64,000 nucleotides of DNA. Origin: Syntrophorhabdales bacterium (lineage in GTDB: Bacteria > Desulfobacterota > Syntrophorhabdia > Syntrophorhabdales > WCHB1-27). The stretch spans positions 5,874-69,873 of the forward strand of contig JBEKHB010000012.1 in NCBI GenBank assembly GCA_050012495.1, read 5' to 3'. Positions within the stretch are counted from its first letter, which is position 1. Each line of letters begins with the position of its first letter. Positions 880-59,766 of this stretch are shown here, piece by piece. The translations under genes and the position numbers were made by a program. The notes beneath the pieces are model-generated. The model did not search any database. It was not told where the DNA came from and worked only from the letters and a program-made list of their open reading frames with translations.

Positions 880-1278
880 ATGGTGAAACACGTGGCAGCA
901 ACCGTTGTGCTGGTGCTCATTGCCCTCAGCTATGGCGCCGCGAGAGCAAATGATAGCCACATGATGACAGACGAGCAGCTTCTCTCCATGCTGGGAAAGC
1001 CCGATGTAGTCATCATTGACGTGCGCACGAACTATGACTGGGATCACAGTAACGCAAAGATCAAAGGGGCCGTGAGGGAAGAAGGCATGAAGTTCGGTTC
1101 CTGGATGAAGAAGTACCCCAAAGACAAGACAATCGTCCTTTATTGTGCCTGAGTGAACGATGCAACGAGTGTCAGTTTGACACAAGCATATCTAAAAGCA
1201 GGCTACGAGAACGTGTACTATGTGAAGGGTGGCTGGGACGGCTGGGTCAAGGCCAAGTATCCGACGGAGCCTAAGTAG
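880..1278 (+). CDS. Periplasmic single-domain rhodanese (sulfurtransferase) with an in-frame TGA (1150-1152) at the catalytic Cys position; candidate selenoprotein, alternatively a pseudogene
   Basis: ATG 880 follows AAAAGGGG and opens a signal-peptide-like MVKHVAATVVLVLIALSYGAARA. The track ORF stops at ...TIVLYCA-TGA. The same frame continues without a stop as VNDATSVSLTQAYLKAGYENVYYVKGGWDGWVKAKYPTEPK to TAG 1276-1278, which is a typical rhodanese C-terminus. A hairpin sits 16 nt after the TGA. Confidence 0.65.
1169..1183 (+). promoter_or_regulatory. Candidate bacterial SECIS stem-loop
   Basis: GTGTCA (1169-1174) and TGACAC (1178-1183) are perfect complements around a GUU apical loop. The stem starts 16 nt downstream of UGA 1150-1152. 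Confidence 0.5.
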
Positions 1279-1284: not shown

Positions 1285-1824
1285 TCATCTATCGCTCCAC
1301 TTTTCCGGTAGCCTGCGCCCAAGAGAAACCCAATGACGGCTCTGCCGGGATGAGAAAAGGAGTGTCATTGACAGCAGGAGAATTGCCGGGTCCAGATAAA
1401 TGCTCCACGACGCCATGGTGGATCCGATAGCCCCGAAACAACCGCATTCCACATCGATCCCCCGCGAGAGCAGGATAACCTTGGTAATGAAAAAAGAGAT
1501 GCTCAGCAAGGCGATGCCGAGAGCGGACAGACGGGTGAGCACGCCGAGGAGCAGGCCAATTGCGCAGGCGAGCTCGATGAATGGGAGGGCCCATCCGAAG
1601 CCGATTGCCAGCGGTCCCGGCAGTATGTCGAAATTGTATACCATGGCGACCGAGTAGTGTTCGATATCCACGAGCTTTCCAAATGAGGAGACAAGAAAGG
1701 TGACGGCCAGAACCAGACGGAAGACAAGTATCACGTACCGGTTTTCGAGGAACCTGTGTCGAATGGCGCCGCTCCCATCGATGGTCGCTTGTTCCCTTAT
1801 GACATACCTCCCATGATCGATCAA
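1285..1824 (-). CDS. MauE/DoxX-family integral membrane protein (start uncertain)
   Basis: Hydrophobic multi-helix protein with LVSSFGKLVD...ALPFIELACAIGLLLG...GIDVECGCFG, a MauE-type CGCFG motif. The track ORF runs to 2010, but the N-terminal 60 aa look non-membrane and Arg/Pro-rich. An in-frame TTG at 1824 is a plausible start. Confidence 0.7.
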   Translation of the reverse strand: MIDHGRYVIREQATIDGSGAIRHRFLENRYVILVFRLVLAVTFLVSSFGKLVDIEHYSVAMVYNFDILPGPLAIGFGWALPFIELACAIGLLLGVLTRLSALGIALLSISFFITKVILLSRGIDVECGCFGAIGSTMASWSIYLDPAILLLSMTLLFSSRQSRHWVSLGRRLPEKWSDR

Positions 1825-7240: not shown

Positions 7241-7582
7241 GTGGCGTGGATGGACGAAGATGAATGGGGTCGTGATCCTTCCGTGCGCAGCATGCGGTCC
7301 GTCTTTGCCGCCATCGAGGCGGCACAAAACCGCTTCCTCCATGGGCTCGGCGTGGGCCGCACCGACAAAAGACTCCGCCATTGGCGAAAGACGGCCCTCC
7401 ATCTCTTCGAGCAGACCTGGGCAGTCGCCGCCGAGCGCGGGATGCCGCCGGCTGAAAAGGATGCAGCCGACCTGTACCTCTGCTGTCTCGCAAAGGTGCT
7501 CGGGACGTACGGGATCCAGGCGCCGCACCCGTGCGTGCCCGATAACCCGGGCGTGATGCGTCTTTTAGAGGAAAAAGGGTGA
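7241..7582 (+). CDS. Hypothetical protein (113 aa)
   Basis: GTG 7241 lies 5 nt after AGGAGG. It is translationally coupled (GTGA overlap) to the next ORF. No recognisable domain. The region is GC-rich and has long antisense ORFs, so the coding call rests on the RBS and the coupling. Confidence 0.5.
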   Translation: MAWMDEDEWGRDPSVRSMRSVFAAIEAAQNRFLHGLGVGRTDKRLRHWRKTALHLFEQTWAVAAERGMPPAEKDAADLYLCCLAKVLGTYGIQAPHPCVPDNPGVMRLLEEKG

Positions 7583-9000: not shown

Positions 9001-9730
9001 CCCTTCAGCGCCCGTGCTGACGCCGGCAGATCTCGTGCTCGCTTTTACCGGTGCGGCGCCGGAGGCGCTCCTCCTGCCGCGGAGGGCGGTCATCGTCTTC
9101 ACCCCGGCCGACCTCGACCGGCTCGCAAGAGAGACCGGGGCGGAGCCCGTGCCCGTTTGGCGCCCATTCAAGCGCCTTTACAGGCCCCGAGGAAAAGAGA
9201 CGGTCCTGGCGCGGTCCTGGGTCGGCGGGCCGGCCGTCGCCGCCCTTGTCGAAGAGCTCGCCGCTTTCCGTGTGCGAGAATTCTGCTTGTGGGGCTACTG
9301 CGGAGGGATCAGCGCAGATGTCCGCGTCGGAGACGTCATCCTGGCGACCGCGGCGTTCAGGGAAGAAGGTGTCTCTTCTCACTACCTTGAAGACGAAGAC
9401 GAGCTTGTAGGGTCGGAATGGGCGGCCCAATGGGAGCTGCCGTCGAAGAAAGCCCGAATTCTCGCCGGTCCCGTCTGGACGTGCGACGCCCTTTACAGGG
9501 AAACGGCGGAGAAGGTTGCGAGGTACGCCGAAAGGGGGGTGCTCGGAGTTGAGATGGAGGTGGCCTCTTTCTATGCCGTCTGCAAGCAGAAGGGCCTTAA
9601 AGCCATGGCGTTCCTCGTCGTATCCGACGTTGTCCGGCCCGACGGGTGGGAAAGCGGCTTCAAGAGCACGCAACTGCAAAAAGGGGCCGCGAGGTTGTCG
9701 GCCTACATCAGAAAATACGTGCTCGTCTGA
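8984..9730 (+). CDS. Nucleoside phosphorylase superfamily (PNP_UDP_1-like) protein
   Basis: WGYCGGIS, VGDVILATAA and GVLGVEMEVASFYAV are typical of purine/uridine phosphorylase-fold proteins. It overlaps the HIT gene by 17 nt. Confidence 0.75.
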   Translation: MRSFFDPSAPVLTPADLVLAFTGAAPEALLLPRRAVIVFTPADLDRLARETGAEPVPVWRPFKRLYRPRGKETVLARSWVGGPAVAALVEELAAFRVREFCLWGYCGGISADVRVGDVILATAAFREEGVSSHYLEDEDELVGSEWAAQWELPSKKARILAGPVWTCDALYRETAEKVARYAERGVLGVEMEVASFYAVCKQKGLKAMAFLVVSDVVRPDGWESGFKSTQLQKGAARLSAYIRKYVLV

Positions 9731-9748
9731 ACAACCCCTATCAATTGA

Positions 9749-10204
9749 AAAGGGCGTCTCCCCGAAACGGAGCGGACGGTCATCGATAATGCCCTGAAGG
9801 AACCAAAGAAGATCCTCTACCGCTTCCACGACAAGGTGTGCCCGAACTGCAAGAAGCGGTTCAATGCGAAGGCCCCGGTTCTTCCCAGAAGTCTCTACGG
9901 GAACAATCTCACCGCGCAGGTCGCCGTCATGCACTACTTCCACGGCATCCCCACGGGGAGGATCTGCGAGATGACGGGCATCAACGTAGGGAGCCTCGTC
10001 GACATCTTTCGCCGCTTGGGGAGGTACTTCCTGCCTGCCATGGAAGCCCTGAAGAATGCCTACCGGGCGGTGCTCCACACCATAAACAAAAGAAGGGCAG
10101 AACAATCCCTGGAATCGGTCTTCAAAGGAATCCTCGACAAGATTGCCGAGAACCCTGCCGTTGATGTTACCTCCCTGATACTGCCTGCTCCCGAGCAAGC
10201 GTGA
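9749..10204 (+). mobile_element. IS66-family transposase remnant: only the N-terminal zinc-finger/linker part, with the DDE domain missing
   Basis: The open frame reads LPETERTVIDNALKEPKKILYRFHDKVCPNCKKRFNAKAPVLPRSLYGNNLTAQVAVMHYFHGIPTGRICEMTGINVGSL, which resembles the IS66 TnpC region before the catalytic core. It is about 150 aa, versus roughly 500 aa expected. No inverted repeats were identified. Confidence 0.5.
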
Positions 10205-28442: not shown

Positions 28443-30101
28443 ATGAGGTCAGATGGATTTCGGCCTTATCAGAAAGAACTCGCAAAAATATATAATTCTA
28501 AGAGATGGTGGTTGGGTTTGACCTTTGGTGATATCCTGGACCGTGCTGCAGACTGCTATCCCGAGAAGATAGGCATAGTGACGGAAGAGGTCAGGTTATC
28601 ATACGCCGACTTTAGGAACGAAGTGAACAGGGTAGCTATCGCCTTTAGCAAGCTGGGTTTGGGGAAGGGCGACCGTGTAATCATTCAATTGCCTAATTGG
28701 ATTGAATTTTTATTGGTATTTTTCGGACTGCAGAAGATAGGCGCCATCGGGGTTTTCGCCTTGCCGAGGCATTCCCAGGCAGAAATCGAATATCTTGCCG
28801 AGCTGACCCAAGCGAAGGCCTGGGTGGTTCCGATAAGTTACAGAAAAACGGACTTTAGACCCCTGATCAGGTCTGTGCAATCGAAAAGGTTCAATCTGGA
28901 ATATATAATTACGCCCAGAGACACGATCGAGGGAACGATTCTATTTGATGAGATGAAGGATTCAGCGAGTCTGCCCCCCGATCCTCAGGGATATCTGGAA
29001 TCGTTGAGACCGGATCCTATGGACATGGCCAATATTCTGCTGACCGGTGGAACTACGGGATTGCCCAAAGGGGTACCGAGGGATCACAACAGTCACATTC
29101 TTAATGGGCATGGATGGGTTTGGTGCTGGGAGTTGGGCAACCAGGATACGGGGCTGATTGCTATGCCGTTGGGTCATAACGCACCTCATATTACGGTTGT
29201 CTATCCGATGATGCTTACCGGTGGGAAAATAGTGGTGGTTACCGGAACGGGTCCAAAAGAGATTCTGGAGACCGTGGAAAAAGAGCGGATTACATATATT
29301 ACCCCCGTCCCTGCGCAGATGGAAGCGATACTGAGTTTTCCTGATTTCTCGAAGTACGATTTGAGTTCTTTGAGATTGATTACATTAGGCGGGGCCCACT
29401 CTTCACCCGAATTGATCAAACGATTGAACGACAAATTCGGTGCCATTCAACTGGCCAATGTCTTCGGTATGGCAGAAGGGCCATGCACAAGTACCAGGAA
29501 GTATGATTCCGGAGAACTCGTCGGTCGCACAGTCGGACTGCCCGCGTGCCCTTATGACGACTTTAAGGTTGTGGATGACCGGGAAGAAGAGGTCCAGGTA
29601 GGGGTTGAAGGGGAACTCGTTGCCAAGGGACCCGGGGTTTTCACCGGGTATTACAAAACGAAGAATAAGGATTTATCCGAGACCTTCACAAGGAACGGAT
29701 ATCTGAAGACCGGTGACTTAGCTAAAAAGGTTAATGAGCAGGGACACATTCAAATCACCGGCAGAAAAAAGGACGTCATCATTCGGGGGGGAGAGAACAT
29801 TAGCTCGGTTCAGGTGGAGGAGTGGGTTGCTGGTCATCCTCACGTGGAAACTGTTGCTGTTGTTGGAATGCCGGACCCGATCCTTGGAGAGCGGATTTGC
29901 GCTTACATTAAGCTGAAGAAGGGGGGATCCCTTCAGATAGGTGAGTTGACAGCTTTTCTTAAGGGGAAAGGTGCATCCGTTTTTCTTCTCCCGGAGAGGA
30001 TAGAGATTATCGACGAGCTGCCTCTCACCAACATCGGTAAGGTAGACAAAAAAGCCCTGCGAGTGGACATCGCTGCAAAGTTAAAAGCGGAAACCTCATA
30101 A
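28443..30101 (+). CDS. Aryl-acid adenylating enzyme / CoA ligase (EntE/DhbE-like AMP-binding family)
   Basis: The N-terminus YNSKRWWLGLTFGDILDRAA and QLPNWIEFLLVFFGLQKIGA resembles 2,3-dihydroxybenzoate-AMP ligases. LTGGTTGLPKGV (AMP motif), YKTGD and GKVDKK are also present. Confidence 0.85.
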   Translation: MRSDGFRPYQKELAKIYNSKRWWLGLTFGDILDRAADCYPEKIGIVTEEVRLSYADFRNEVNRVAIAFSKLGLGKGDRVIIQLPNWIEFLLVFFGLQKIGAIGVFALPRHSQAEIEYLAELTQAKAWVVPISYRKTDFRPLIRSVQSKRFNLEYIITPRDTIEGTILFDEMKDSASLPPDPQGYLESLRPDPMDMANILLTGGTTGLPKGVPRDHNSHILNGHGWVWCWELGNQDTGLIAMPLGHNAPHITVVYPMMLTGGKIVVVTGTGPKEILETVEKERITYITPVPAQMEAILSFPDFSKYDLSSLRLITLGGAHSSPELIKRLNDKFGAIQLANVFGMAEGPCTSTRKYDSGELVGRTVGLPACPYDDFKVVDDREEEVQVGVEGELVAKGPGVFTGYYKTKNKDLSETFTRNGYLKTGDLAKKVNEQGHIQITGRKKDVIIRGGENISSVQVEEWVAGHPHVETVAVVGMPDPILGERICAYIKLKKGGSLQIGELTAFLKGKGASVFLLPERIEIIDELPLTNIGKVDKKALRVDIAAKLKAETS

Positions 30102-30225
30102 TGCAAGAGTTAAGCTCGAGTTTAAGGTCAAGATGGAGAGCAGAACTTTACCGAATACTGTGACGGGAAAATTCTCTGAATGAGAGGTTTAGTATCTAAA
30201 TATAGAAAATAACAAGGGGGGTAGC

Positions 30226-31911
30226 ATGGAAAGCGTAAAATTGTGGGATATCGCGCCTGGATACGATCTGATTGAAGAAGTTGATGTGCCTGAGATGCAT
30301 TCTTGGTTCTTGGACGTGACACACTCTATACCGCCTCAGACCCCGCTGTTCGCGTGGTTCTGGACGAGGTACTGCAGTCATGGGCTACAGTATGCTTCCG
30401 ATTACTTCAGCTTCCCGACATGTAAGGGCTCGGAGATGAGGAACAAAAACGGTTATTCTTATAACGCCTTCCACATCGTCAGAGATGAAGAAGAGGTTAA
30501 AAGGAGGGAGGTAAAATTCAGGGAAGCGATGATCCCATGGATTCAGAACTTCGATGGGCTGTGGGACGGCTACAAAAGGAAATTACTGGACCTGTATGAG
30601 AAACTGAAAGCGCTGGATGTTGATAAGGCGTCCAATGCCGAATTATACCAGCATAGCTGCGACCTCATTGATGCTTACAGAACAGTGTTTGAAATCCACT
30701 TCCTGGGAATGCAAAGCTCTTTCAATGGATGGGTGATGTTTGAGAATTTATGCAAAGAGCGTTTTGGGATAACCGACCAGGACCCACATTTTCAAAACCT
30801 CTTCGTAGGCTTCGACAGCAAGGTGTATCAGGTTGACAAGCAACTATCCGAACTTGGCCAGGTTGCTGCTGAGATGGGTTTGGCAAATGTTTTCAAGGAG
30901 AATGAAGCCAAGGCTATCATACCGAAGCTTGAGCAAATGACAAAGGGGCAGGAATGGCTTAAGAAGTTTAACGAGTTCTTGCGGGTAGAAGGTTGGAGAA
31001 TGGTTCGGATGATTGACATAACGGAGCCCTACTGGCTGGAGGATCCCAGCATCCCTATAAATATCGTGAAGCAATTTATGGACGCCGGCTACCACCTGGA
31101 GAAAATTAGAAAGGAGTTGGTGAGAAAAAGAGAGGAAGCAGTGGGAGCAATCCTCGAAAAGGTACGTCCTGATGAAAAGGAAAGGGTCAGGCTGCTGATA
31201 AGGCTGGGCCAGAAAGCCGGCATTTATAGCGAGGAACATGATCTTTATTGCGAATTGTATCTTCACGCCTTACTTCGTCGCGGGTATCTGGCAATAGGAA
31301 GAAGACTCGCCCAGAATGGGAGCATCGATCAGGAGAAAGACGTCCTCTTTCTGAATCCCGACGAAATTGGCAGAGCTCTGGTCGTCCCGGAACATCATGA
31401 CTTGCGGTTCATCACAAAAAGACGCCGTGCCGAATGGGAAGAAGCGAAAACGATGACCCCACCCCCGATTTATACCGACCGGGGGAGCTTTGAAGAAGCA
31501 GTTGGCATGGATTTAATGCCAACAAGGGACGCTATACTGATAAAACTCATCATAGGTGAACTGCCAACGGTCAAGCCGGAACTGAAGGCTGATCTTTATG
31601 GACTATGCGCTTCACAAGGTATTGCTGAGGGGCCGGCCAGGGTTGTAATGGATTATGGGCAATTGGGTGCAGTCGAGACAGGTGACATTCTGGTCTGCCC
31701 CACCACAAACCCCGCCTGGATTCCGGTTTTCAGCAAGATCAAGGGCATTATTACTGACGGAGGGGGGGTGCTTTCCCACGCAGCTATTGTTGCTCGCGAA
31801 TATGGACTGCCTGCCGTGGTAAATACTCGCGAGGCCACGATGCTAATCAAAACGGGTCAAAAAATTAAGGTCGACGGGAACTCAGGAGCAGTGTTCATCT
31901 TACACGAATAG
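30226..31911 (+). CDS. PEP-utilising-enzyme mobile (swivel His) domain protein, phenylphosphate synthase alpha (PpsA)-like
   Basis: The C-terminus is GIAEGPARVV...GDILVCPTTNPAWIPVFSKIKGIITDGGGVLSHAAIVAREYGLPAVV, containing the phospho-His motif. The N-terminal 400 aa lack an ATP-grasp fold and begin HSWFLDVTHSIPPQTPL. Confidence 0.8.
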   Translation: MESVKLWDIAPGYDLIEEVDVPEMHSWFLDVTHSIPPQTPLFAWFWTRYCSHGLQYASDYFSFPTCKGSEMRNKNGYSYNAFHIVRDEEEVKRREVKFREAMIPWIQNFDGLWDGYKRKLLDLYEKLKALDVDKASNAELYQHSCDLIDAYRTVFEIHFLGMQSSFNGWVMFENLCKERFGITDQDPHFQNLFVGFDSKVYQVDKQLSELGQVAAEMGLANVFKENEAKAIIPKLEQMTKGQEWLKKFNEFLRVEGWRMVRMIDITEPYWLEDPSIPINIVKQFMDAGYHLEKIRKELVRKREEAVGAILEKVRPDEKERVRLLIRLGQKAGIYSEEHDLYCELYLHALLRRGYLAIGRRLAQNGSIDQEKDVLFLNPDEIGRALVVPEHHDLRFITKRRRAEWEEAKTMTPPPIYTDRGSFEEAVGMDLMPTRDAILIKLIIGELPTVKPELKADLYGLCASQGIAEGPARVVMDYGQLGAVETGDILVCPTTNPAWIPVFSKIKGIITDGGGVLSHAAIVAREYGLPAVVNTREATMLIKTGQKIKVDGNSGAVFILHE

Positions 31912-31937
31912 GACCAACATTAGCGGAGGAAAACGCG

Positions 31938-33179
31938 ATGGGCAGGAAGGCCGTGGTTCTCATTGGAACGCTCGATAGCAAAGTGGAAGTGATCAGTTTT
32001 ATGAAGGAACAGATTGAGCAGAGAGGCTGCGAGGCCGTCTTATTGGATGTCAGTCCGTTACTGTATCCTTCAAGGCCAAGACCTGAACCCGTAATGAACG
32101 CGGATATTGCCCCTGAAGAGATTTGCCGGATTATGGGAGAGAATGTTGAAGAGATCAGGTCAACGAAAGACCGGGATCGCGTGAGTAAGGTCATGGGAGA
32201 GGGGGCATTACAGAAACTAACCCAACTGTATTCTTCCGGAAGACTGAACGGTGCTGTATCGATAGGCGGGTTAACAACTTCCCTCTTTGCCGCCAATCTC
32301 TTGAAAAAACTGCCCTTCGGTGTGTCAAAATTGGTTGTCTGTTCGGGGGTACGCTCGGACATAATGAGGTGGTTTGGTGTCGCCGATATCGCCATCATGC
32401 AAGTTCTTGTCGACATGGAAAGACCCAACGAATTAGTGAAAAATGCGCTTGTTCGAGCAGCCGGCGCCATATGCGGCATGGTGGAGAAGGCTACGGTTCC
32501 TTTTGCGCCACCAACTGAGAAGAGCATTGCCCTCACGGAATATGGTTTCTGTGATAACTGCGCTGTCCTTGTAAGCAAGCGCTTACAGGACAGGGGCTTC
32601 AGTGTGTACCCCTTTCATTCCATGGGAGTCGGTGACGCAGCGATGGAGAATCTGATAGCCCAAGGTCACTTCAGCGGCGTAATAGACATCGTGACGGGCG
32701 GACTCATAGAGGAGATTTTTGAGGGCACCAGGGCAGCCGGTCTGAAAAGGCTCGAGGCAGCGGGGGAAAGAGGTTTGCCCCAGGTTCTTGCTCCCTCGGG
32801 TATCAATCTCACTAACGCCGGACCGGATAGAAAACACCGTGAGAGATTCAGTTCTCGTGAGAGGAAAGTAAAATTAGACGAGTACCGGATAATCACCAGG
32901 TACAACGCAGAGGAATTGACCGCGGCAGCTAAAGTGTACGCTGACAAGTTAAATAAAGCCAGGGGCCCTGTAACATTTTTAATTCCTCTTCGTGGGTGGT
33001 CCTCGGCCGATAGAGAAGGGTCTCCACTTTATGCCCCGGAGGAAGACCGGGTATTTATTGAAGAGCTGAAGAAGGAAGTCAAACCAGAAATTGAGATCCG
33101 GGAGCTGAACTGTAATCTCGACGATACGGAATTCGCTGAAGCTCTTGTGGAAAGCTTTATCCAGATACAGGGGACATAA
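31938..33179 (+). CDS. UPF0261 / Tm-1-like ATP-binding family protein
   Basis: The N-terminus KAVVLIGTLDSKVEVISFMKEQIEQRGCEAVLLDVS and the 413-aa two-domain length are typical of UPF0261. Confidence 0.7.
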   Translation: MGRKAVVLIGTLDSKVEVISFMKEQIEQRGCEAVLLDVSPLLYPSRPRPEPVMNADIAPEEICRIMGENVEEIRSTKDRDRVSKVMGEGALQKLTQLYSSGRLNGAVSIGGLTTSLFAANLLKKLPFGVSKLVVCSGVRSDIMRWFGVADIAIMQVLVDMERPNELVKNALVRAAGAICGMVEKATVPFAPPTEKSIALTEYGFCDNCAVLVSKRLQDRGFSVYPFHSMGVGDAAMENLIAQGHFSGVIDIVTGGLIEEIFEGTRAAGLKRLEAAGERGLPQVLAPSGINLTNAGPDRKHRERFSSRERKVKLDEYRIITRYNAEELTAAAKVYADKLNKARGPVTFLIPLRGWSSADREGSPLYAPEEDRVFIEELKKEVKPEIEIRELNCNLDDTEFAEALVESFIQIQGT

Positions 33180-33378
33180 GGCTTTTAGCACTGAGGTTGA
33201 CGCCGTGGTCTTCGCGGGCACAATCCCCCTGGAACTGTGTGCACGTGATGTCACGGCGGAATATGGCGACAAGGAGGTGATCAAAGTAGATAGAAGGAAT
33301 ACCGACGAATTTAAGCTGTGGGTTTACGGCAATGAGCTGCTATCCGGCAGCGATGAAACGGACCAAGGAGGATGCGAT

Positions 33379-34380
33379 ATGTTGAAGATCGACGCTTTTA
33401 CCCATATTATACCAATTAAGTACAATAAGCTTCTCTATAAAATAGCGGGAGGCGATTTTTTCGCAAAAGCTGTTAATGAATCCATACCGACTCTCACGGA
33501 CCTGGATGCCAGATTTCGGATAATGGACAAGTACGATGTGATGCACGTAATCACCCTGGCCTTCCCAACCCCGGAGCAGGTTGCGGACCCGAAGGGTGCG
33601 GTGGAATTGGCAAAAGCAGCCAACGATGAGATGGCGGAACTGGTCTTCAGATACCCGGAGAGATTCCCGGCAGCCATAGCCACTCTGCCCATGAATGATA
33701 TGGACGCAGCTTTGAAAGAGACCGACAGGGCGATAAAGGAGTTAAGATTCAGGGGCGTGCAAATATGTACGAGCATTAACGGCAAGGCTTTGGATTCACC
33801 TGAATTTTGGCCTCTTTATGAAAAAATGTGTGAATACAATCTACCCATATTGCTTCATCCATACAGAGATCCATCCCAGGCGGATTATCCGGTAACGGAG
33901 AAGAGGTCAAAGTACAGACTGTCAGGACTGATCGGTTGGCCGTATGAGACCACAGCGGCTATGATTCGCCTGGTCTTCAGCGGTGTATTTGACAGGCATC
34001 CCAGCTTAAAGATTCAGGTACATCATTGTGGTGGTTATATCCCGGCTGTTATTAACCGGGTAGTAGGAGAATATCAATTCCGTGAGAGGCAGCGAAGATC
34101 AGAAGGTGATATGCCGTTTACTAAACCTCTCATCGACTATTTCAAGATGTTCTACTACGATACTGCGGTCTATGGGCACACCCCTTATCTGATGTGCTGC
34201 TACGAGCTTTGCGGGGCGGACCATATGGTATTTGCGACGGATCTGCCTTATGATAGCCAGTTTGGTGCGAGGTATACCAGGGAAACAATAGCGTCGATAG
34301 AGCGGATGAACATCAGTGATTTGGAGAAGAAGAAGATATTTGAAGACAATGTGAGAAAGCTCATGCGCTTACCCGTGTGA
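33379..34380 (+). CDS. Amidohydrolase_2 / ACMSD-family protein (family of the reversible hydroxybenzoate decarboxylases)
   Basis: AAGGAGG lies 7 nt before ATG 33379. Motifs are MLKIDAFTHIIP, LRFRGVQI, LLHPY, WPYETT, HHCGGYIP and VFATDLPYD. The track start at 33145 lies in the upstream gene. Confidence 0.85.
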   Translation: MLKIDAFTHIIPIKYNKLLYKIAGGDFFAKAVNESIPTLTDLDARFRIMDKYDVMHVITLAFPTPEQVADPKGAVELAKAANDEMAELVFRYPERFPAAIATLPMNDMDAALKETDRAIKELRFRGVQICTSINGKALDSPEFWPLYEKMCEYNLPILLHPYRDPSQADYPVTEKRSKYRLSGLIGWPYETTAAMIRLVFSGVFDRHPSLKIQVHHCGGYIPAVINRVVGEYQFRERQRRSEGDMPFTKPLIDYFKMFYYDTAVYGHTPYLMCCYELCGADHMVFATDLPYDSQFGARYTRETIASIERMNISDLEKKKIFEDNVRKLMRLPV

Positions 34381-34392
34381 TGCTGCCAAGGG

Positions 34393-34455
34393 CTGTACGG
34401 CTTCTCCACGACTGTCAATACCCTGTTTGCCGTCTGAATCGGAGAAGCCGTACAG
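34393..34455 (+). terminator. Perfect 15-bp inverted repeat (33-nt loop) directly after the amidohydrolase gene; intercistronic stem-loop or attenuating terminator
   Basis: CTGTACGGCTTCTCC (34393-34407) pairs with GGAGAAGCCGTACAG (34441-34455), followed by CTCTTGCTTTG. Confidence 0.45.
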
Positions 34456-34601
34456 GCTCTTGCTTTGCGGGTAAGGAACAGGGGCGCCTCTCTGTGATAC
34501 CCGCTGGTTCTCTACTACCAAAAATAGACCGTGGCAACGACGAAGTCAATAAAGCTTAATGAATATAGGCGGAAGGGCCTTACGTTAACCAGGAGAGTGC
34601 G

Positions 34602-35645
34602 ATGAAAGTAAAGGAAATCTACTGGCTCGACGAGTTGTCGAGAGAGCACAACGATATTGTGGGCAAGAAGTGCGCCAACCTGGGAGAGCTGATAAGGCAG
34701 GGGCTTCGGGTGCCCTACGGCTTCGCGCTCTCCGTTAAGGCCTACGAGCACTTCATGGAGTCTACCGGATTGAAGGAAAAAGTGCGTCAAATTGTTGAAG
34801 ACGCGGTGGACACGGGCCTTGACGTGGACCACGATGTGGGAAAAATGATGGAGACGAGCGCTGAAATAAGGGGGGCAATTGAGGGGTGCCCGATGCCCCC
34901 GGACCTTGCAGCCGAGATAGGTCGTTATTATTCGGGGCTGCAGGAAAAACTGGCGATCGGGCACGTGGCGTGTGCAGTGAGGTCAAGCGGGGCTGTAAGT
35001 ATGCCGGGCCAGATGGAGACCTATCTGAACGTCGCAGGTGAGAAAGCCATCATCGAACACGTGAAAAAAGTGTGGGGCAGCGCCTTTACTACAAGGGCCA
35101 TCGCTTTCAGAATCCAGCAGAATATGCCCGTTTTCTGGGCGCCGATCGGCGTGGCGGTAATCATGATGATTGAGGCTAGGTCTGCGGGCGTCATATTGAC
35201 CGTTCTGCCGAACATCGGCGACACAGACCGGGCCATTGTAGAGGGCAACTTCGGTCTCGGAGAGAGCGTCGTCAGCGGAGAATTTACACCTGATTCCTTC
35301 GTCGTCCACAAGCACGAGATGATCATTGAATCGAAAACGGTTGCCGAAAAGAGAAAGATGGTCGTCTATGATACCTGTGGCACACGCCTTTGCGACGTGT
35401 CGGAGGATCTTAAAGACCAACCCTGCCTCAACAACGATGAAATCCTTGAGATCGTGAGGGTCGCTAAGGATGTTGAGAAGTATTTTGCCGCTCCTCAAGA
35501 CATGGAGTGGGTGGTCGACAGCCGGTTCGCCTTTCCGGAGAGCATTTTCTGGGTCCAGGCCAGGGGCGCAAAATATGCGAAAAAAGAGGCACATAGAAAC
35601 GAAGAATGTGTGATGGATATGATGCTGCAACTATTCCGAAAGTAA
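34602..35645 (+). CDS. PEP/pyruvate-binding (PPDK_N, ATP-grasp) domain protein, phenylphosphate synthase beta (PpsB)-like
   Basis: VGKKCANLGELIRQGLRVPYGFALS and VRSSGAVSMPGQMETYLNV are PEP synthase N-terminal domain motifs. At 347 aa it has no swivel or PEP domain. Confidence 0.85.
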   Translation: MKVKEIYWLDELSREHNDIVGKKCANLGELIRQGLRVPYGFALSVKAYEHFMESTGLKEKVRQIVEDAVDTGLDVDHDVGKMMETSAEIRGAIEGCPMPPDLAAEIGRYYSGLQEKLAIGHVACAVRSSGAVSMPGQMETYLNVAGEKAIIEHVKKVWGSAFTTRAIAFRIQQNMPVFWAPIGVAVIMMIEARSAGVILTVLPNIGDTDRAIVEGNFGLGESVVSGEFTPDSFVVHKHEMIIESKTVAEKRKMVVYDTCGTRLCDVSEDLKDQPCLNNDEILEIVRVAKDVEKYFAAPQDMEWVVDSRFAFPESIFWVQARGAKYAKKEAHRNEECVMDMMLQLFRK

Positions 35646-50489: not shown

Positions 50490-51185
50490 TTATGCCGGCG
50501 GGTGACTGCAGAGACTCTCTGTCAGATACTTCCTCAGCTTTTCGACCCTCCCCTTATTGCTGCGGTAAAGCGGCAGAACGTTCTGATATTCCCTTACCTT
50601 GTTTATGTCTTTAAGCTCTTCCACATGAACATCTTTTTCAAGCCACTTCCTCACGTTATGAAATGCACCGATAAACAGAATACCCTTTCCCCCTTCCTGC
50701 AGCGTATCGTTTATCTGCTTCGCAATGAACTTATCCCTTCTTTCCAAAAGCGTATTTTTTGCGAGCTTATACTTCAGGGCCGCGGCAAGCTTTTGCGCCC
50801 GGTTCTTTGCCTGCGTTATCTTGAGAATCCAGGCGCGTTCCTCCTTTACGAGGCTTAAATCTTCCGTCTTGACGAGAACGGCGCCTTTCCCGATCAGTGC
50901 CGAGATGATCTGATAATTCCGGCTGCCTGTCTGAAGAACTTCCCGAACTATTGCCACGGCTGTTTCACCGCCTGCTACCATGCCGTCCTGGTATATCTTG
51001 AAACCCGGTACTTCAATGGAATCAAAATACCCGGCAATTGCGTCCCAGAAACCGAGGACGGTCTCCTCGTGCCTTTTCCAAAGTGTCTCACCGAATTCCC
51101 TCAGACCTCTTGCGGCAATGTCCTCGCCCATGGAGCCGAGGTCCGCCTCTGTGTGGATAATTGGGACGTAGAGTAACGCACGCAT
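50490..51185 (-). CDS. Hypothetical protein (231 aa), last gene of the gas-vesicle operon
   Basis: ATG follows AGGAG, 13 nt downstream of the preceding gvp gene, with the same low GC. No domain recognised. Confidence 0.6.
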   Translation of the reverse strand: MRALLYVPIIHTEADLGSMGEDIAARGLREFGETLWKRHEETVLGFWDAIAGYFDSIEVPGFKIYQDGMVAGGETAVAIVREVLQTGSRNYQIISALIGKGAVLVKTEDLSLVKEERAWILKITQAKNRAQKLAAALKYKLAKNTLLERRDKFIAKQINDTLQEGGKGILFIGAFHNVRKWLEKDVHVEELKDINKVREYQNVLPLYRSNKGRVEKLRKYLTESLCSHPPA

Positions 51186-51198
51186 CCCGGCTCCTGTC

Positions 51199-51495
51199 TT
51201 ATTTCACCCTCTCTTCCAGCCGTTCAATCCTCTTTTTCAATGCCTTTGCCTCATTCTCAATAGCGTGTCTCTTTCTGCCATTGGATAAATAGGGGTCCTG
51301 CTGCCACCAGTTAATCCCCATCTCCATCGCTTTATCGACAGATGCGATCAACAGCCTTATCTTAATGGTTAACAGTTCAATGTCTGCAATTCTTATCTGG
51401 ATGTCTCCTGCAATAACAATTCCTTTATCCAGTACTCTTTCCAGTATGTCGGCAAGATTGGTAGCCTGAATTGCATGCACCATTTGTTCGGCCAT
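51199..51495 (-). CDS. GvpA-family minor gas vesicle protein (GvpJ/GvpM/GvpS type)
   Basis: LADILERVLDKGIVIAGDIQIRIADIELLTIKIRLLIASVDKA is the GvpA/J/M core. Confidence 0.85.
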   Translation of the reverse strand: MAEQMVHAIQATNLADILERVLDKGIVIAGDIQIRIADIELLTIKIRLLIASVDKAMEMGINWWQQDPYLSNGRKRHAIENEAKALKKRIERLEERVK

Positions 51496-51506
51496 AAGAC
51501 TCTCCC

Positions 51507-52040
51507 TTATATCAGATCTCCCAAAGGACCGAGATTAAGATTCATGTCTTCATCCTTGATACCGAAGATCGCCTGGATTTCCTGCATCTTTTTCTTTACC
51601 GCTTTCAGACTTAATCCCAACTTTTGGATCTCAACGGAAGAAAGCGATCCCCTCCGCACTCTCCTGAATGCCTCCTTCTCCATAAGCTTTCTTATCAACT
51701 CGATAATGGTTAAAATGAGCTTTGCCAAACCCTGTTCAGTTTCCCTCGGGCTGTCTGCGTGTATAATCCTGGGGATGTTTTCTTCGGCCTTTTTTATCTC
51801 GTTTTGTAATTTCTCGATATAGGCGATGTCTTCTTTGGTCAATGCCTTTTCGGGGCTGCCGGGGCGCCTTCCCGATAACTCCTCAGCCTTGGCAACAGAA
51901 GTGAGTATGAGCCTCAAACCCAGAAACACCAGGTCTACATCCGCTATCCGTAGCACCATGTCGCCGTTGATAACCACTCCCTTTTCCACGACCTTGTCCA
52001 GGACATCAAACAGCGCAACCCTCTCATGTGTAGCTGTCAT
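51507..52040 (-). CDS. Fusion protein: N-terminal GvpA/J-family domain plus C-terminal GvpK domain
   Basis: N-terminus: LFDVLDKVVEKGVVINGDMVLRIADVDLVFLGLRLILTSV (GvpA/J core). C-terminus: GLAKLILTIIELIRKLMEKEAFRRVRRGSL...IQAIFGI (GvpK signature). ATG 52040 overlaps the upstream stop (ATGA). Confidence 0.8.
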   Translation of the reverse strand: MTATHERVALFDVLDKVVEKGVVINGDMVLRIADVDLVFLGLRLILTSVAKAEELSGRRPGSPEKALTKEDIAYIEKLQNEIKKAEENIPRIIHADSPRETEQGLAKLILTIIELIRKLMEKEAFRRVRRGSLSSVEIQKLGLSLKAVKKKMQEIQAIFGIKDEDMNLNLGPLGDLI

Positions 52041-52876
52041 GCCGTCTCCTGCGGCCCGTAGGAATCGGTAAAATTGAAGGGCGGCCACGGGCCGCTGTAT
52101 TCGAGGTGAAGCCCCTTTGTGCGAAGCTCCCCGGCGGTGCCGTCAACGGTCTTCTTGAATGCATCGAGCTTATCTGCATGGACTAAAAAGGCTGCATTGA
52201 AAACCATCCTCTCTGTTTTGCCCGTCATCTCTCTGTCAAGAATCCTTGTCCTTACGGATTCTGTTGCCTCTTCACCCAGTTTTCCGAAGAGCTTTTCCGA
52301 AGCGGCGTCCAATTCTTTGTCTGCCTCATGACGAACGGCCTCTTTCAGCTCTTCTTCCATAAAGTAGGCCATGCCCTCGGGCATTGAGGCAATTTCCTGC
52401 TCTTTCAACCTTATTTCCGCATTATTTTCCTTAACCGTCAGCTCAAATCTTTCTTCATCCATAAGATATACCTTCACATTCCATTCCTGTTTCCCTTGAA
52501 TCTTATGCAACAACCCGCTCATCTTTGCATGGTTCCTGTCAAGGGTTTCTTTCAGTCCTGCCTCGTCGTTAAAAATGGTGCCGAACCTCATGGGGATCAC
52601 GCTGACAAGCCCATCAATCCCCCCCATGGCCTCTTCGATAACGTCTTCGTGGATGAGAACCTTTTCCTTGATCCAGTCAAGGTCTCCCCGGGCCTTTTTC
52701 TGAATTTCTTCGGAGGTGAATTTCACCAGGGAAACTCTGCTGACAACCGCCTCGATCTCGCCCTGGACGATGGTGAAAATTCCCCTTTCTCCCTCAATGT
52801 CTCCCGTACGAAACGCTGAAGGCTCTTCAGTTTTTTCCCGCACACAATAAAGATACAATCCCTCCATACCCTTCAC
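52037..52876 (-). CDS. GvpF/GvpL-family gas vesicle protein (paralogue 4)
   Basis: LYLYCVREK...IEAVVSRV...HEDVIEEAM...YSGPWPPFNF are family hallmarks. Confidence 0.9.
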   Translation of the reverse strand: MKGMEGLYLYCVREKTEEPSAFRTGDIEGERGIFTIVQGEIEAVVSRVSLVKFTSEEIQKKARGDLDWIKEKVLIHEDVIEEAMGGIDGLVSVIPMRFGTIFNDEAGLKETLDRNHAKMSGLLHKIQGKQEWNVKVYLMDEERFELTVKENNAEIRLKEQEIASMPEGMAYFMEEELKEAVRHEADKELDAASEKLFGKLGEEATESVRTRILDREMTGKTERMVFNAAFLVHADKLDAFKKTVDGTAGELRTKGLHLEYSGPWPPFNFTDSYGPQETA

Positions 52877-53139
52877 GCCTGCGATTGGTGGTTTGCAATC
52901 TTCTTTTCGTATGACTGAACCTCCAGGTTTTCATCAACCCTCACCTTATAGATGTTCAGATCCTTCACCTTCGTCGGCAGCCCGCAAGATTTGATGAGTG
53001 CGCTCTCTTCATATACCTCGACCTCTTCCTCCCACCCTTCGGGCGTTCTTGTGATCTTTACCACCTTCGCATCCTCTGCTGAGAGAATACTTTTAAAGAA
53101 CCCCTTCGTCGCCTGGGTAACTTCTGCAATATTTGCCAT
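52873..53139 (-). CDS. gvpO: Gas vesicle protein GvpO
   Basis: VVKITRTPEGWEEEVEVYEE...NIYKVRVDENLEVQSYEKK matches the GvpO pattern (GW..vEvvE ... YeV.ld..g.v.sY.r). AGGAGG RBS. Confidence 0.75.
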   Translation of the reverse strand: MANIAEVTQATKGFFKSILSAEDAKVVKITRTPEGWEEEVEVYEESALIKSCGLPTKVKDLNIYKVRVDENLEVQSYEKKIANHQSQA

Positions 53140-53168
53140 GTATCGCCTCCTATAGTGTTCTTTTCCGC

Positions 53169-53405
53169 TTACCCCTCTTCTCCTTCCGCGTACATCGCAT
53201 GCAACCGTTCGAGAAGCGCCTTTTCCTGCCTCGTGTAGGTCTCTTCATCTATCTCATCCAGCTCGAACCGCAATTGCAATTCCATAAGCCGTTCCTTGAC
53301 AAGCCCCTCGTCGGACATCTCGTGCTGAGCCATATCGTTAACCTTTTCGCTCAGCCAGATAATGCCTCTCAATGGTGAAAGAATTATGTCATCGATGAGG
53401 AACAT
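53169..53405 (-). CDS. gvpG: Gas vesicle protein GvpG
   Basis: MFLIDDIILSPLRGIIWLSEKVNDMAQHE...RLMELQLRFELDEIDEETYTRQEKALLERL is the typical GvpG sequence. Confidence 0.85.
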   Translation of the reverse strand: MFLIDDIILSPLRGIIWLSEKVNDMAQHEMSDEGLVKERLMELQLRFELDEIDEETYTRQEKALLERLHAMYAEGEEG

Positions 53406-53451
53406 CGTCTCTTTCTTTTTCGGCGTTCAGATCCACGCGCTTTCGTTCCTG

Positions 53452-53481
53452 CAGCATGCAATCGGTACACGCCGCATGCTG
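53452..53481 (-). other. Intercistronic hairpin between the GvpF/L gene and gvpG
   Basis: CAGCATGC (53452-53459) pairs with GCATGCTG (53474-53481) around a 14-nt loop. Confidence 0.6.
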
Positions 53482-53489
53482 GCAGCCAT

Positions 53490-54254
53490 TCATCCTCCCA
53501 TGTTTATCACCAGGTTCACAAAATTGAACGGCGGCAGGGTTCCCACATATTTAAACCTCACTTTGTCGTTATACCTATCTGCAAGCCCCTGAACTTCCCT
53601 GTCAAACTCCGCCTCTTTCTCTTGCGCTACCAGAAAAGCGGCGTTCATAATCATCAGCTCGCCATAGGTAGTGTTTATCCTGGCCTGTTCGCAAAGGGGC
53701 GATAATCTTCGTAATGCATCATCCTTATAGAAGTCCCTTTCCTTTTGGAGTGCTGCTTCAACCATCCTGCCTATCTCCATCCTCTGGTAATATGATTTTT
53801 CAGGGAGCAACGGTATAATCTGCTCTTTCAGGGCCTTTATATCATCATTTTTCTCGAGAATTTCCTTATACAGCACGTGTTCCTGGAACAGCATCTTCAC
53901 GCCGAGCTCTTTCTTGCCGTGCATGGTTTTTAATAACTCGATGAATTTGCGGTGCTCTCGCTCTAATATCAGTCTTACCGTTTCCACATTTTCAGCAATT
54001 GTCGCAAACCTGACCGGCAGCACCGTATGGGTTTTCATTACCTCTTCAATGACCCGCTCATGAGAAATGAGATACTCCCGGGCAACAGGATATTTTTTGA
54101 CAGGCGAATTGCTCACCACAGCCCCGATATCCCGGAAGGGTACGGTATATACCGCGTCACCCCTTCCACCAATGCCGACGGCGCCGAACGACAGAGGTTC
54201 CTTTGACTCATTTATGCAATATATGTATACCCCGTCTTCCAAAGTCGCTCCCAT
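53490..54254 (-). CDS. GvpF/GvpL-family gas vesicle protein (paralogue 3)
   Basis: VYIYCINES...IGAVVSNS...HERVIEEVM...YVGTLPPFNF. ATG 54254 lies 9 nt after GGAGAGG. The track start, GTG 54260, is the alternative. Confidence 0.9.
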   Translation of the reverse strand: MGATLEDGVYIYCINESKEPLSFGAVGIGGRGDAVYTVPFRDIGAVVSNSPVKKYPVAREYLISHERVIEEVMKTHTVLPVRFATIAENVETVRLILEREHRKFIELLKTMHGKKELGVKMLFQEHVLYKEILEKNDDIKALKEQIIPLLPEKSYYQRMEIGRMVEAALQKERDFYKDDALRRLSPLCEQARINTTYGELMIMNAAFLVAQEKEAEFDREVQGLADRYNDKVRFKYVGTLPPFNFVNLVINMGG

Positions 54255-54260
54255 AAACAC

Positions 54261-58260: not shown

Positions 58261-58278
58261 TGTTGCCGTTCCTCCGTT

Positions 58279-59217: not shown

Positions 59218-59229
59218 TGAGAATCCCCT

Positions 59230-59766
59230 TCATTTCTTTATCGTAATCTCAAGTATGCCGTTCTTAAAAGAAGAGGCAAGGGTCTCGCTTTTCCCCTTTG
59301 CGGGAAGGAGAAGCTCCTTGCGATATTTTTTGTCTCCGCTTTTCGCGGAAATATTGAGTATGTCCCCCAACAGGTCCATCTTTATGTCGTTCTCATTCAC
59401 CCCGGGCATTTCCGCGTAGACACGGATTTCATCTTTTTCGTCAAAAACATCGGTAATCGGCTCCCTTTCTTCTTCGACCTTTGCTCCGCGAGGGGTTTTT
59501 TTAATATTGCCGAAATGTTCGACAACCGGTTTTCCTCCTGTGGCCGTCTTTATGGAAAACCCGAAGACGCCTTTCATGCCCTCTTTCAGGTCGCTTAAGT
59601 CTATGGCGCCTTCTTTCTTTATTTCACCGCCTGCTTTTTCCATCTCGGATACGAGGTCCACCAGGTTTTGAACGCCTTTAAACAGGTCTCCCATCCCCAG
59701 GTCTCCCATTCCAAGCTCAATCTTGATTGAATCGTCGCGCTTTTTGCTGCGTTTTTTTTCCGCCAT
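59230..59766 (-). CDS. Small heat-shock protein (Hsp20/alpha-crystallin), GvpH-like context
   Basis: Alpha-crystallin domain ITDVFDEKDEIRVYAEMPGVNENDIKMDL...SSFKNGILEITIKK. ATG 59766 follows GGGGGGA. The N-terminal region is Lys/Gly-rich. Confidence 0.85.
   Translation of the reverse strand: MAEKKRSKKRDDSIKIELGMGDLGMGDLFKGVQNLVDLVSEMEKAGGEIKKEGAIDLSDLKEGMKGVFGFSIKTATGGKPVVEHFGNIKKTPRGAKVEEEREPITDVFDEKDEIRVYAEMPGVNENDIKMDLLGDILNISAKSGDKKYRKELLLPAKGKSETLASSFKNGILEITIKK

What the first reader, a model, noticed from the sequence alone, without database searches (positions are those of the whole stretch)
880..1278. Rhodanese with UGA at the catalytic cysteine position and a SECIS-like hairpin: candidate selenoprotein split by ORF calling
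Seen in the sequence: the rhodanese ORF stops at ...KTIVLYCA-TGA (1150-1152). The same frame then reads VNDATSVSLTQAYLKAGYENVYYVKGGWDGWVKAKYPTEPK to TAG 1276-1278, which completes a normal rhodanese fold. The recoded loop U-V-N-D-A-T aligns by eye with the C-P-N-E-A-T active-site loop of the YCACPNEATS-type rhodaneses, so the UGA sits at the catalytic Cys. A 6-bp perfect stem (GTGTCA/TGACAC) with a GUU apical loop starts 16 nt after the UGA. That is the geometry expected for bacterial SECIS elements. Established knowledge: rhodanese-related sulfurtransferases are a reported bacterial selenoprotein family, and deltaproteobacteria are rich in selenoproteins. An ordinary annotation would give a truncated 113-aa protein lacking its active site.
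Basis: partly seen in the sequence, partly recalled or inferred. Interest (0 to 1): 0.65.

Follow-up and report, generated by a model that had tools for sequence, protein, structure and literature searches.

The report
Known CxU rhodanese selenoprotein gene
The apparent stop codon inside this small rhodanese gene almost certainly encodes selenocysteine, but the gene belongs to a selenoprotein family already catalogued (NCBIfam NF041203, "rhodanese_LYCAU"), so the call is correct and ordinary.

Summary
The gene starts at ATG 880 and reads ...IVLYCA-TGA (1150-1152). The same frame continues for 41 codons to TAG 1276-1278. A 6-bp hairpin with a GUU loop sits at 1169-1183.

The read-through protein (132 aa) scores 160.7 bits against NCBIfam NF041203 "rhodanese_LYCAU, rhodanese-related (seleno)protein" (cutoff 115). 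A 2026 review lists this family as "rhodanese form 3, CxU", first reported in 2005.

All 18 intact orthologues from named genomes carry TGA at this column. dN/dS after the TGA (0.11) equals dN/dS before it (0.09). The hairpin pairs in every sequence, with compensatory changes at two pairs, and meets all four published bSECIS constraints. Rare relatives carry TGC (Cys) at the column. One orthologous locus has a tRNA-Sec gene 1 kb away. TGA is a normal stop elsewhere in the window.

One correction: the canonical rhodanese catalytic cysteine is most likely the preceding Cys89. Sec91 lies two residues later, in a 2-residue loop insertion (C-A-U).

The protein has a signal peptide. A convergent MauE/DoxX membrane gene (invariant CGCFG) is conserved beside it. 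The biochemical role is unknown.

Verdict: a real selenoprotein, already known, of low interest.

The parts
880..1278 (+). Complete selenoprotein gene: 132 codons including Sec91 (UGA), then TAG. It encodes a single-domain rhodanese of family NF041203 (rhodanese_LYCAU).
   Evidence: Translation. Pfam Rhodanese 9.2e-18 covering profile positions 2-101/102. NCBIfam NF041203 at 1.2e-47, 160.7 bits against a cutoff of 115, profile 3-126/126.
880..948 (+). Predicted Sec-type signal peptide, MVKHVAATVVLVLIALSYGAARA, with an inferred A-R-A|N cleavage site. It implies a periplasmic or exported protein.
   Evidence: The sequence shows a basic N-terminus, a hydrophobic core and an AxA motif. The pattern is conserved in orthologues and in distant homologues. 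AF2 models it as a low-confidence N-terminal helix, residues 2-20. No signal-peptide predictor was available, so this is inferred.
1144..1152 (+). C-A-U motif: TGT (Cys89, probable canonical catalytic Cys), GCC (Ala90), TGA (Sec91).
   Evidence: TGA at this column in 18/18 intact orthologues. TGC in Cys-form L020/L021. Cys89 is nearly invariant while the U column varies among read-through homologues.
1169..1183 (+). bSECIS upper stem-loop: GUGUCA / GUU / UGACAC. It lies within codons Ser-Val-Ser-Leu-Thr-Gln.
   Evidence: Fold. Conserved in all orthologues. All cells pair (100%), 2 of 6 pairs show compensatory double changes, and 0/500 shuffles reach the covariation score. It meets all four bSECIS model constraints given in PMC13188914.
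1160..1189 (+). Possible lower-stem extension (AUGC 1160-1163 with GCAU 1186-1189) around the upper stem. It is not conserved.
   Evidence: Predicted in the window, L002 and L005 only.
1276..1278 (+). True stop codon (TAG).
   Evidence: Orthologues stop at the same position. Nucleotide identity falls from 0.77 before this stop to 0.28 after it.
1285..1824 (-). Convergent MauE/DoxX-family membrane protein with an invariant CGCFG motif. Gene callers give 179 aa; the longest ORF runs to 2010. It is a candidate functional partner, which is an inference.
   Evidence: Pfam MauE 6.3e-21 and DoxX 6.5e-10. Found directly downstream and convergent in 13 of 19 genome loci. CGCFG present in all 11 orthologues checked. 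Gene calls.

Best explanation
Window 880-1278 is one gene for an exported, single-domain rhodanese selenoprotein of the known family NF041203 ('rhodanese_LYCAU', also 'rhodanese-like protein form 3, CxU').

During translation, UGA 1150-1152 is decoded as selenocysteine. The hairpin 1169-1183 has an apical loop GUU that starts 22 nt after the UGA. It acts as a bacterial SECIS that recruits SelB with Sec-tRNA(Sec) to the ribosome. Translation then continues 41 codons to TAG 1276. This step is inferred from comparative evidence, not shown biochemically.

The product carries Cys89-Ala90-Sec91 in a rhodanese active-site loop that is two residues longer than usual. Cys89 occupies the canonical catalytic position and Sec91 is a second redox-active residue. 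The most likely chemistry is transfer or reduction of a persulfide or perselenide through a Cys-Sec selenenylsulfide, taking place in the periplasm. The conserved convergent MauE/DoxX membrane protein (CGCFG motif) may be the redox partner. The chemistry, the location and the partner are all inferred.
For: Shown by tools:
- The read-through passes the curated family model: 160.7 bits against a cutoff of 115, full length.
- It completes the rhodanese domain.
- A Cys homologue folds as a rhodanese: pLDDT 76.7, with all top Foldseek PDB hits rhodaneses.
- All 18 intact orthologues from named Syntrophorhabdaceae, Syntrophorhabdales or 'delta proteobacterium' MAGs have TGA at the column. The downstream frame of 45-46 codons and its stop are conserved.
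- dN/dS is 0.107 downstream and 0.088 upstream. Identity collapses to 0.28 after the final stop.
- All hairpin cells pair (100%). Compensatory UA-to-CG changes occur at two pairs, and loop G and U are invariant.
- All four bSECIS constraints are met: 3-nt loop, 6-bp stem, G[U] at the start of the loop, 22-nt spacing, -8.4 kcal/mol.
- The Cys form has TGC, and its hairpin is degraded: an A.C mismatch and a GCU loop.
- Of the best 120 homologue clusters at 90% identity, 115 are calls that end exactly at ..YCx.
- Sister forms carry U-x-U with the same hairpin.
- A tRNA-Sec gene scoring 71.7 bits against Rfam RF01852 lies 1 kb from the orthologue in L015.
- TGA is an ordinary stop for 14 of 39 Pfam-supported genes in the window.

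From the literature: the family is listed as a known selenoprotein (PMC13188914), first reported by Zhang and Gladyshev 2005.
Against: - There is no experimental evidence of selenium in this protein.
- The window has no selA, selB, selD or tRNA-Sec, and neither does the 7 kb upstream of it. The Sec machinery of this particular genome is therefore unverified.
- The hairpin's fold energy in this single sequence is no better than shuffled sequence (z = +0.83).
- No Rfam family matches it.
- The covariation rests on only four compensatory cells among related sequences.
- The roles of Cys89, Sec91 and MauE are inferred. MauE is convergent rather than co-transcribed, and it is missing next to 4-6 orthologues.
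Confidence: 0.93

Rival explanations
1. The TGA is a genuine stop. The gene is a truncated or decaying rhodanese, or two separate small genes of 90 aa and 41 aa, and the downstream frame is not translated.
For: Gene callers give exactly this split. Most database entries are 90-aa proteins. The single-sequence hairpin energy is unremarkable.
Against: The 90-aa piece lacks a third of the domain. The downstream 41-46 codons are under the same purifying selection as the upstream part (dN/dS 0.107 against 0.088). Indels are in-frame, the final stop is shared, and identity is random after it. The TGA itself is invariant in 18 species-level genomes, whereas a decaying gene would vary. The hairpin covaries.
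Confidence: 0.02
2. The UGA is read through, but not as selenocysteine. The organism may use a reassigned code (UGA = Trp or Gly), or a near-cognate tRNA or Cys-tRNA may insert another residue.
For: Translation through the UGA is what the comparative data show directly. The identity of the inserted residue is inferred.
Against: TGA ends 14 of 39 Pfam-supported genes in the window, and those domains are complete, so the code is standard. The only sense codon seen at this column in close orthologues is Cys, which is the signature of Sec/Cys pairs. A SECIS-type hairpin with the required spacing and loop is conserved. A related genome that carries the TGA orthologue encodes tRNA-Sec.
Confidence: 0.03
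3. The conserved hairpin is only a by-product of the conserved peptide Ser-Val-Ser-Leu-Thr. The SECIS lies elsewhere, or recoding does not depend on this hairpin.
For: The stem lies in coding sequence under strong protein constraint, and four of six pairs never vary.
Against: Synonymous third positions covary: AGT-to-AGC with ACA-to-ACG in L013, L015 and L018. L005 keeps pairing through two amino-acid changes (Val-to-Ala with Thr-to-Ala). Distant U-x-U forms with different peptides (TSASVAR, TSVRLTR) keep the same stem at the same distance. The Cys form has lost perfect pairing and the loop U.
Confidence: 0.05

Closest known systems
[quoted passage not shown]
   Same: Full-length match above the curated cutoff. 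Same L-Y-C-A-U motif, one Sec, about 130 aa, single rhodanese domain, and a SECIS immediately downstream.
   Different: Nothing of substance. The window's copy lacks a 4-5-residue loop segment (..GG[VKGA]W..) that its closest orthologues have.
U-x-U rhodanese-related sulfurtransferases of Olavius algarvensis delta-symbionts (PMC1976440)
   Same: Same family and same hairpin. I found such forms here (L022, L023: Y-TGA-x-TGA).
   Different: Those have a second Sec at the position of the canonical catalytic Cys. The window has Cys there.
Other rhodanese selenoprotein forms: form 1 (UxxS), forms 2 and 4 (UxxG), and TsoB, a rhodanese/DsbD fusion (UxxxxU) (PMC13188914)
   Same: Rhodanese fold with Sec in the active-site loop. 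TsoB also couples a rhodanese to a membrane thiol-redox module.
   Different: Going by their motifs (for example UxxG, like CRSG), Sec seems to replace the canonical catalytic Cys in those forms. This is my reading and was not tested. Here Sec is at +2 in a loop insertion. The window protein scores far below the TsoB cutoff (36.9 against 805 bits).
Single-domain rhodaneses GlpE and PspE of E. coli (PDB 1gmx)
   Same: About 100-residue rhodanese domain, with a catalytic Cys after the central strand followed by a helix. PspE is also periplasmic (from my own knowledge).
   Different: Those have a 6-residue loop with a single Cys and no Sec. Sequence similarity is weak (E = 0.0015).
E. coli fdhF-type bacterial SECIS and the bSECISearch consensus model
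   Same: A hairpin in the coding sequence just after the UGA, a small apical loop starting with G-U, and spacing within 16-37 nt.
   Different: The loop is only 3 nt. No bulged U or long lower stem is conserved. SelB binding is untested.
DoxX-SseA-SodA membrane-associated oxidoreductase complex of M. tuberculosis (cited in PMC10943396)
   Same: A DoxX-family membrane protein that works with a rhodanese-type thiol oxidoreductase. Here a MauE/DoxX gene is conserved beside the rhodanese.
   Different: That is a different clade with no Sec. Here there is only conserved convergent gene order, and no evidence of a complex.

Membership tests
NF041203 rhodanese_LYCAU (rhodanese-related selenoprotein) | HMM score above the curated cutoff over the full model length | tested here: met
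   160.7 bits against a cutoff of 115, E = 1.2e-47, profile 3-126/126 (U replaced by C in the query).
NF041203 rhodanese_LYCAU (rhodanese-related selenoprotein) | L-Y-C-A-U motif with in-frame TGA at the U position | tested here: met
   The window reads IVLYCA-TGA. The same is true in 18/18 intact orthologues.
Bacterial selenoprotein (general criteria) | Cys-containing homologues that align Cys with the TGA | tested here: met
   P0001-P0003 read LYC[DA]C-VNDSTS. L020/L021 have TGC. Nineteen of 38 read-through homologues have Cys at the column.
Bacterial selenoprotein (general criteria) | Coding conservation continues downstream of the TGA | tested here: met
   dN/dS is 0.107 downstream and 0.088 upstream. 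The final stop is shared and identity after it is 0.28.
Bacterial selenoprotein (general criteria) | bSECIS as defined in PMC13188914 Fig. 2A: 3-9 nt loop, 4-16 bp stem, G in the first two loop positions, 16-37 nt from the UGA to the loop, MFE of -7.5 kcal/mol or lower | tested here: met
   GUU loop (3 nt), 6-bp stem, G-U at the start of the loop, 22-nt spacing, -8.4 kcal/mol. Conserved with covariation.
Bacterial selenoprotein (general criteria) | Sec machinery (selA, selB, selC, selD) in the same genome | tested here: inconclusive
   None is present in the 64-kb window or in the 7 kb upstream. The rest of the genome is not available. A related genome carrying the orthologue has tRNA-Sec (L015 7366-7461, 71.7 bits).
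Bacterial selenoprotein (general criteria) | Selenium incorporated at the UGA position | not testable with these tools
   This needs 75Se labelling or mass spectrometry.
Rhodanese domain (PF00581) | Domain profile match and alpha/beta rhodanese fold | tested here: met
   Pfam 9.2e-18. The AF2 model of Cys homologue P0003 has pTM 0.71, and its top Foldseek PDB hits are all rhodaneses with TM 0.55-0.63.
Rhodanese domain (PF00581) | Catalytic Cys as the first residue of the loop after the central beta-strand | tested here: met
   Cys89 follows the strand T-I-V-L-Y (model). It is conserved in at least 90% of homologues and aligns with the catalytic Cys of GlpE, 8w14, 6pfz and 4f67. Sec91 is at +2, so the statement 'UGA at the canonical catalytic Cys' is not met.
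Rfam RNA families (any SECIS model) | Covariance-model match | tested here: not met
   There is no hit at gathering thresholds, or at E up to 10, on 1100-1300. The hairpin is not claimed as a member of any Rfam family.

The most novel reading that the evidence does not exclude
The CxU rhodanese may work with the conserved convergent MauE/DoxX membrane protein (invariant CGCFG) as a previously uncharacterised periplasmic redox or chalcogen-transfer relay. The relay would be selenenylsulfide-based. It would be analogous to DoxX-SseA in mycobacteria or to the rhodanese/DsbD fusion TsoB. Possible roles are oxidative-stress defence or sulfur/selenium trafficking in anaerobic syntrophs. No member of NF041203 appears to have been studied experimentally, so the family's function is still open.
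Probability: 0.2. Interest if true: 0.4.

Novelty: already known. Interest (0 to 1): 0.15.

Why it matters
The practical lesson concerns annotation. Prodigal-type gene callers split this gene into a 90-aa fragment and a 41-aa fragment. As a result, 115 of the 120 closest database clusters are truncated calls. NCBI's PGAP has a dedicated model that handles it.

Biologically, this copy adds one more member to a widespread, mostly Sec-containing family of exported rhodaneses in anaerobic Thermodesulfobacteriota-like bacteria. The useful refinement made here is that Sec is not at the canonical catalytic Cys. It lies two residues later, in a loop insertion, giving a C-x-U pair (U-x-U in some relatives). 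That points to selenenylsulfide chemistry rather than a simple Cys-to-Sec swap. The family's function and its possible link to MauE/DoxX remain untested.

Tried and rejected
- **Rfam:** scans at gathering thresholds on the whole window and at E up to 10 on 1100-1300 found no SECIS-like family.
- **Single-sequence folding:** the hairpin is no more stable than shuffled sequence, so thermodynamics alone does not support it.
- **Sec machinery:** Pfam annotation of about 57 ORFs in the window and ARAGORN found no selA, selB, selD or selC. The 7 kb upstream of the window, taken from same-strain contigs, has none either.
- **Other in-frame TGA candidates in the window:** the scan was too noisy to use. 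The best-looking case, TGA at 54261-54263 on the minus strand, is two adjacent GvpL/F paralogues in the same frame. A 90-aa ORF upstream of the window ends in TAG and is unrelated.
- **Which residue is catalytic:** alignment to PDB sequences, by single sequence and by profile, gave conflicting gap placement. The question was settled instead by homologues with normal-length loops and by column conservation. Foldseek output gives no residue mapping.
- **DNA of Cys forms:** the files for P0001 and P0003 were unavailable, so the 'SECIS degraded in the Cys form' observation rests on one distinct sequence.
- **Promoter and terminator scan of 700-2200:** uninformative.
- **selC next to the orthologue in L015:** considered as a functional link and rejected. 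It sits beside a recombinase fragment, which is typical of a tRNA integration site.

Full report
**1. Observation**

- ATG 880 follows a GGGGTGG ribosome-binding site and opens a frame that reads MVKHVAATVVLVLIALSYGAARA-NDSH...KDKTIVLY-C-A.
- The frame then meets TGA at 1150-1152.
- It continues VNDATSVSLTQAYLKAGYENVYYVKGGWDGWVKAKYPTEPK to TAG 1276-1278.
- TTG 811 is only the mechanical ORF start. Orthologues and gene callers start at the ATG, giving a 90-aa piece and a 41-aa piece.
- The 90-aa piece covers Pfam Rhodanese profile positions 2-69 of 102. The read-through covers 2-101.
- The hairpin GUGUCA-GUU-UGACAC lies at 1169-1183, with the stem starting 16 nt after the UGA.

Taken alone, the hairpin is weak evidence. 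Its energy is -8.4 kcal/mol with z = +0.83 against shuffles. Only 1.6% of the 2131 TGA triplets in the window have a comparable hairpin at a permitted distance.

**2. What it is**

With U replaced by C, the read-through protein matches NCBIfam NF041203 'rhodanese_LYCAU, rhodanese-related (seleno)protein'. The match is E = 1.2e-47 and 160.7 bits against a curated cutoff of 115, over the whole model.

[quoted passage not shown] It credits Zhang and Gladyshev 2005, the bSECISearch paper. A 2007 paper reports a U-x-U variant in the rhodanese-related sulfurtransferase family (PMC1976440). The family is therefore already known.

**3. Comparative evidence that the UGA is decoded**

- A protein search found 659 homologues. 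Of the best 120 clusters at 90% identity, 115 are calls that end exactly at ..YCx. Three full-length proteins read LYC[DA]C-VNDSTS.
- A scan of species-representative genomes returned 19 loci from Syntrophorhabdaceae, Syntrophorhabdales and 'delta proteobacterium' MAGs.
- All 18 intact loci have TGA at the column, followed by 45-46 conserved codons and a stop at the same place.
- Nei-Gojobori dN/dS is 0.088 for the 60 codons before the TGA and 0.107 for the 38 alignable codons after it. Pairwise nucleotide identity is 0.80 before, 0.77 after, and 0.28 beyond the final stop. The region after the UGA is therefore translated.
- TGA is not a sense codon in general. It ends 14 of 39 Pfam-supported genes in the window.

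**4. The hairpin**

- In an alignment of 19 sequences, all six stem pairs form in every sequence.
- Two pairs show compensatory double changes. One is UA-to-CG in L013, L015 and L018, through synonymous AGT-to-AGC and ACA-to-ACG. The other is UA-to-CG in L005, through Val-to-Ala and Thr-to-Ala, with a G.U pair in L016.
- Loop positions 1 and 2 (G, U) are invariant.
- None of 500 column shuffles reaches the covariation score, and slid registers pair at 48% or less.
- The element meets all four constraints of the published bSECIS model: 3-9 nt loop, 4-16 bp stem, G in the first two loop positions, 16-37 nt spacing (22 nt here), and MFE of -7.5 kcal/mol or lower.
- The one Cys-form DNA I could read (L020, identical to L021) has TGC at the column. 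Its hairpin site reads GCACCA-GCU-UGGCGC, with an A.C mismatch and no loop U.
- Two distant relatives (L022, L023) read ..Y-TGA-x-TGA. They keep GUGCCA-GUG-UGGCAC or GUGUCA-GGU-UGACAC 16 nt after the second UGA.

**5. Sec machinery**

The window has no tRNA and no Rfam hit. Pfam annotation of its ORFs shows no SelA, SelB or SelD. The 7 kb upstream, from same-strain contigs, has none either. For this genome the test is therefore open.

In L015, a related genome carrying the TGA orthologue, ARAGORN and Rfam find a tRNA-Sec at 7366-7461, scoring 71.7 bits against RF01852. That is about 1 kb from the rhodanese gene. It lies beside a tyrosine-recombinase fragment. I read the proximity as coincidence, but it is proof that the clade decodes Sec.

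**6. Which residue is catalytic**

Alignments to solved rhodaneses disagree: GlpE, 8w14, 6pfz and 4f67 align Cys89, and 6mxv aligns the U column. A profile search of 1.84 billion cluster representatives gave many read-through homologues. In their alignment:
- Cys89 is conserved in at least 90% of sequences.
- The U column is Cys in 19 of 38 and Ser, Asp, Trp or Lys in the others.
- Three homologues with a normal-length loop (YC-x4-TS) lack the two extra residues and keep only the first Cys.

In the AF2 model of Cys homologue P0003, the first Cys directly follows the central strand. The model's best PDB matches are all rhodaneses.

So Cys89 is the canonical catalytic Cys. Sec91 sits in a family-specific 2-residue insertion, giving C-x-U. 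Among the best 150 representatives at 50% identity, about 96 stop at the U column, 9-10 stop at the first-Cys column (the U-x-U type), and about 38 read through.

**7. Likely mechanism**

- Strongly supported by comparison, though not shown biochemically: SECIS-dependent Sec insertion at codon 91 produces a 132-aa precursor.
- Inferred: residues 1-23 form a Sec-type signal peptide, with a basic N-terminus, a hydrophobic core and A-R-A|N. This pattern is shared by orthologues and distant homologues. The mature protein of about 109 aa would therefore be periplasmic.
- Inferred: Cys89 and Sec91 form a redox-active pair, a selenenylsulfide, that handles a persulfide- or perselenide-type substrate.
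- Suggestive only: a convergent MauE/DoxX membrane gene ends 6 nt after the rhodanese stop. It is conserved there in 13 of 19 genome loci. It carries an invariant CGCFG motif. A DoxX-rhodanese (SseA) oxidoreductase complex is proposed in M. tuberculosis.

**8. Verdict**

This is a real selenoprotein gene. It belongs to a family that already has a curated model, so interest is low.

Noticed in passing
window 9741-38955: A block of about 29.2 kb is absent from near-identical strains in other metagenomes. In L026 and L027, flanks that are 97.2-99.97% identical to the window (97.2% for L027's right flank) join window 9740 directly to 38956. The block is present in L024. It carries CoA-transferases, enoyl-CoA hydratases, a thiolase-like/ChsH2 pair, mutase and B12 subunits, AMP-ligases, PEP-utiliser and PPDK_N pieces, and a TetR. 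No long direct repeat or integrase was seen at the junctions, only the 8-mer CTCCCCGA.
   Followed up: partly
window about 50490-63000, minus strand: A gas-vesicle gene cluster. It includes a Gas_vesicle+GvpK fusion (51507-52088); four GvpL/F paralogues (52037-52876, 53490-54260, about 54264-55030, and 55028-56053 with a DnaJ domain); a CDC48-like double AAA ATPase (56050-58260); an ArsA-like ATPase; an Hsp20; and a GvpN-like AAA_5 protein (60149-61066). This is unexpected for a syntroph-like anaerobe.
   Followed up: no
L022 216-640; L023 280-700: Distant family members carry two in-frame TGAs (..Y-TGA-x-TGA), that is U-x-U. A single hairpin lies 16 nt after the second UGA and apparently serves both codons. 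About 9-10 of the best 150 representative clusters end at the first-Cys column.
   Followed up: partly
L015 7366-7461 (+) and 7518-8078 (-): A tRNA-Sec gene (Rfam 71.7 bits) lies about 1 kb downstream of the rhodanese orthologue, just past the MauE gene. It is followed by a truncated tyrosine recombinase, which suggests the tRNA is an integration site.
   Followed up: partly
window 28443-35645: Separate PEP-utilizers (30226-31911) and PPDK_N (34602-35645) genes lie with UPF0261, an amidohydrolase_2 and an AMP-ligase. The arrangement resembles a phenylphosphate-synthase-type aromatic activation cluster, which is my reading and was not tested.
   Followed up: no
window 1213-1230 (codons for ..YVKGGWDGW..): The window's protein lacks 4-5 residues (GG[VKGA]W) that all close orthologues have. 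The deletion is in-frame, and the shorter form matches distant homologues.
   Followed up: no
L019 6001-6384; protein P0082: Two relatives appear frameshifted around the Sec region. L019 has several frame breaks, and P0082 continues in the +1 frame after LYCA. These are probably assembly errors, possibly pseudogenes.
   Followed up: no
L024 1493-3525 (upstream of the window start): A Fur-family regulator and a catalase lie about 4-5 kb upstream of the rhodanese in the same strain. This may hint at an oxidative-stress neighbourhood.
   Followed up: no
window 9005-10198: The longest ORF here (minus strand, 397 aa, no Pfam hit) is probably spurious. Gene calls on same-strain contigs place a PNP_UDP_1 phosphorylase gene on the plus strand instead.
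   Followed up: no
orthologue loci, first 15 nt from the UGA (window 1150-1164): In 11 of 18 orthologues a small hairpin, UGAGU-GAACG-AUUCA (or ACUCA), includes the UGA itself. The window (GAUGCA) cannot form it. Its significance is unknown.
   Followed up: no
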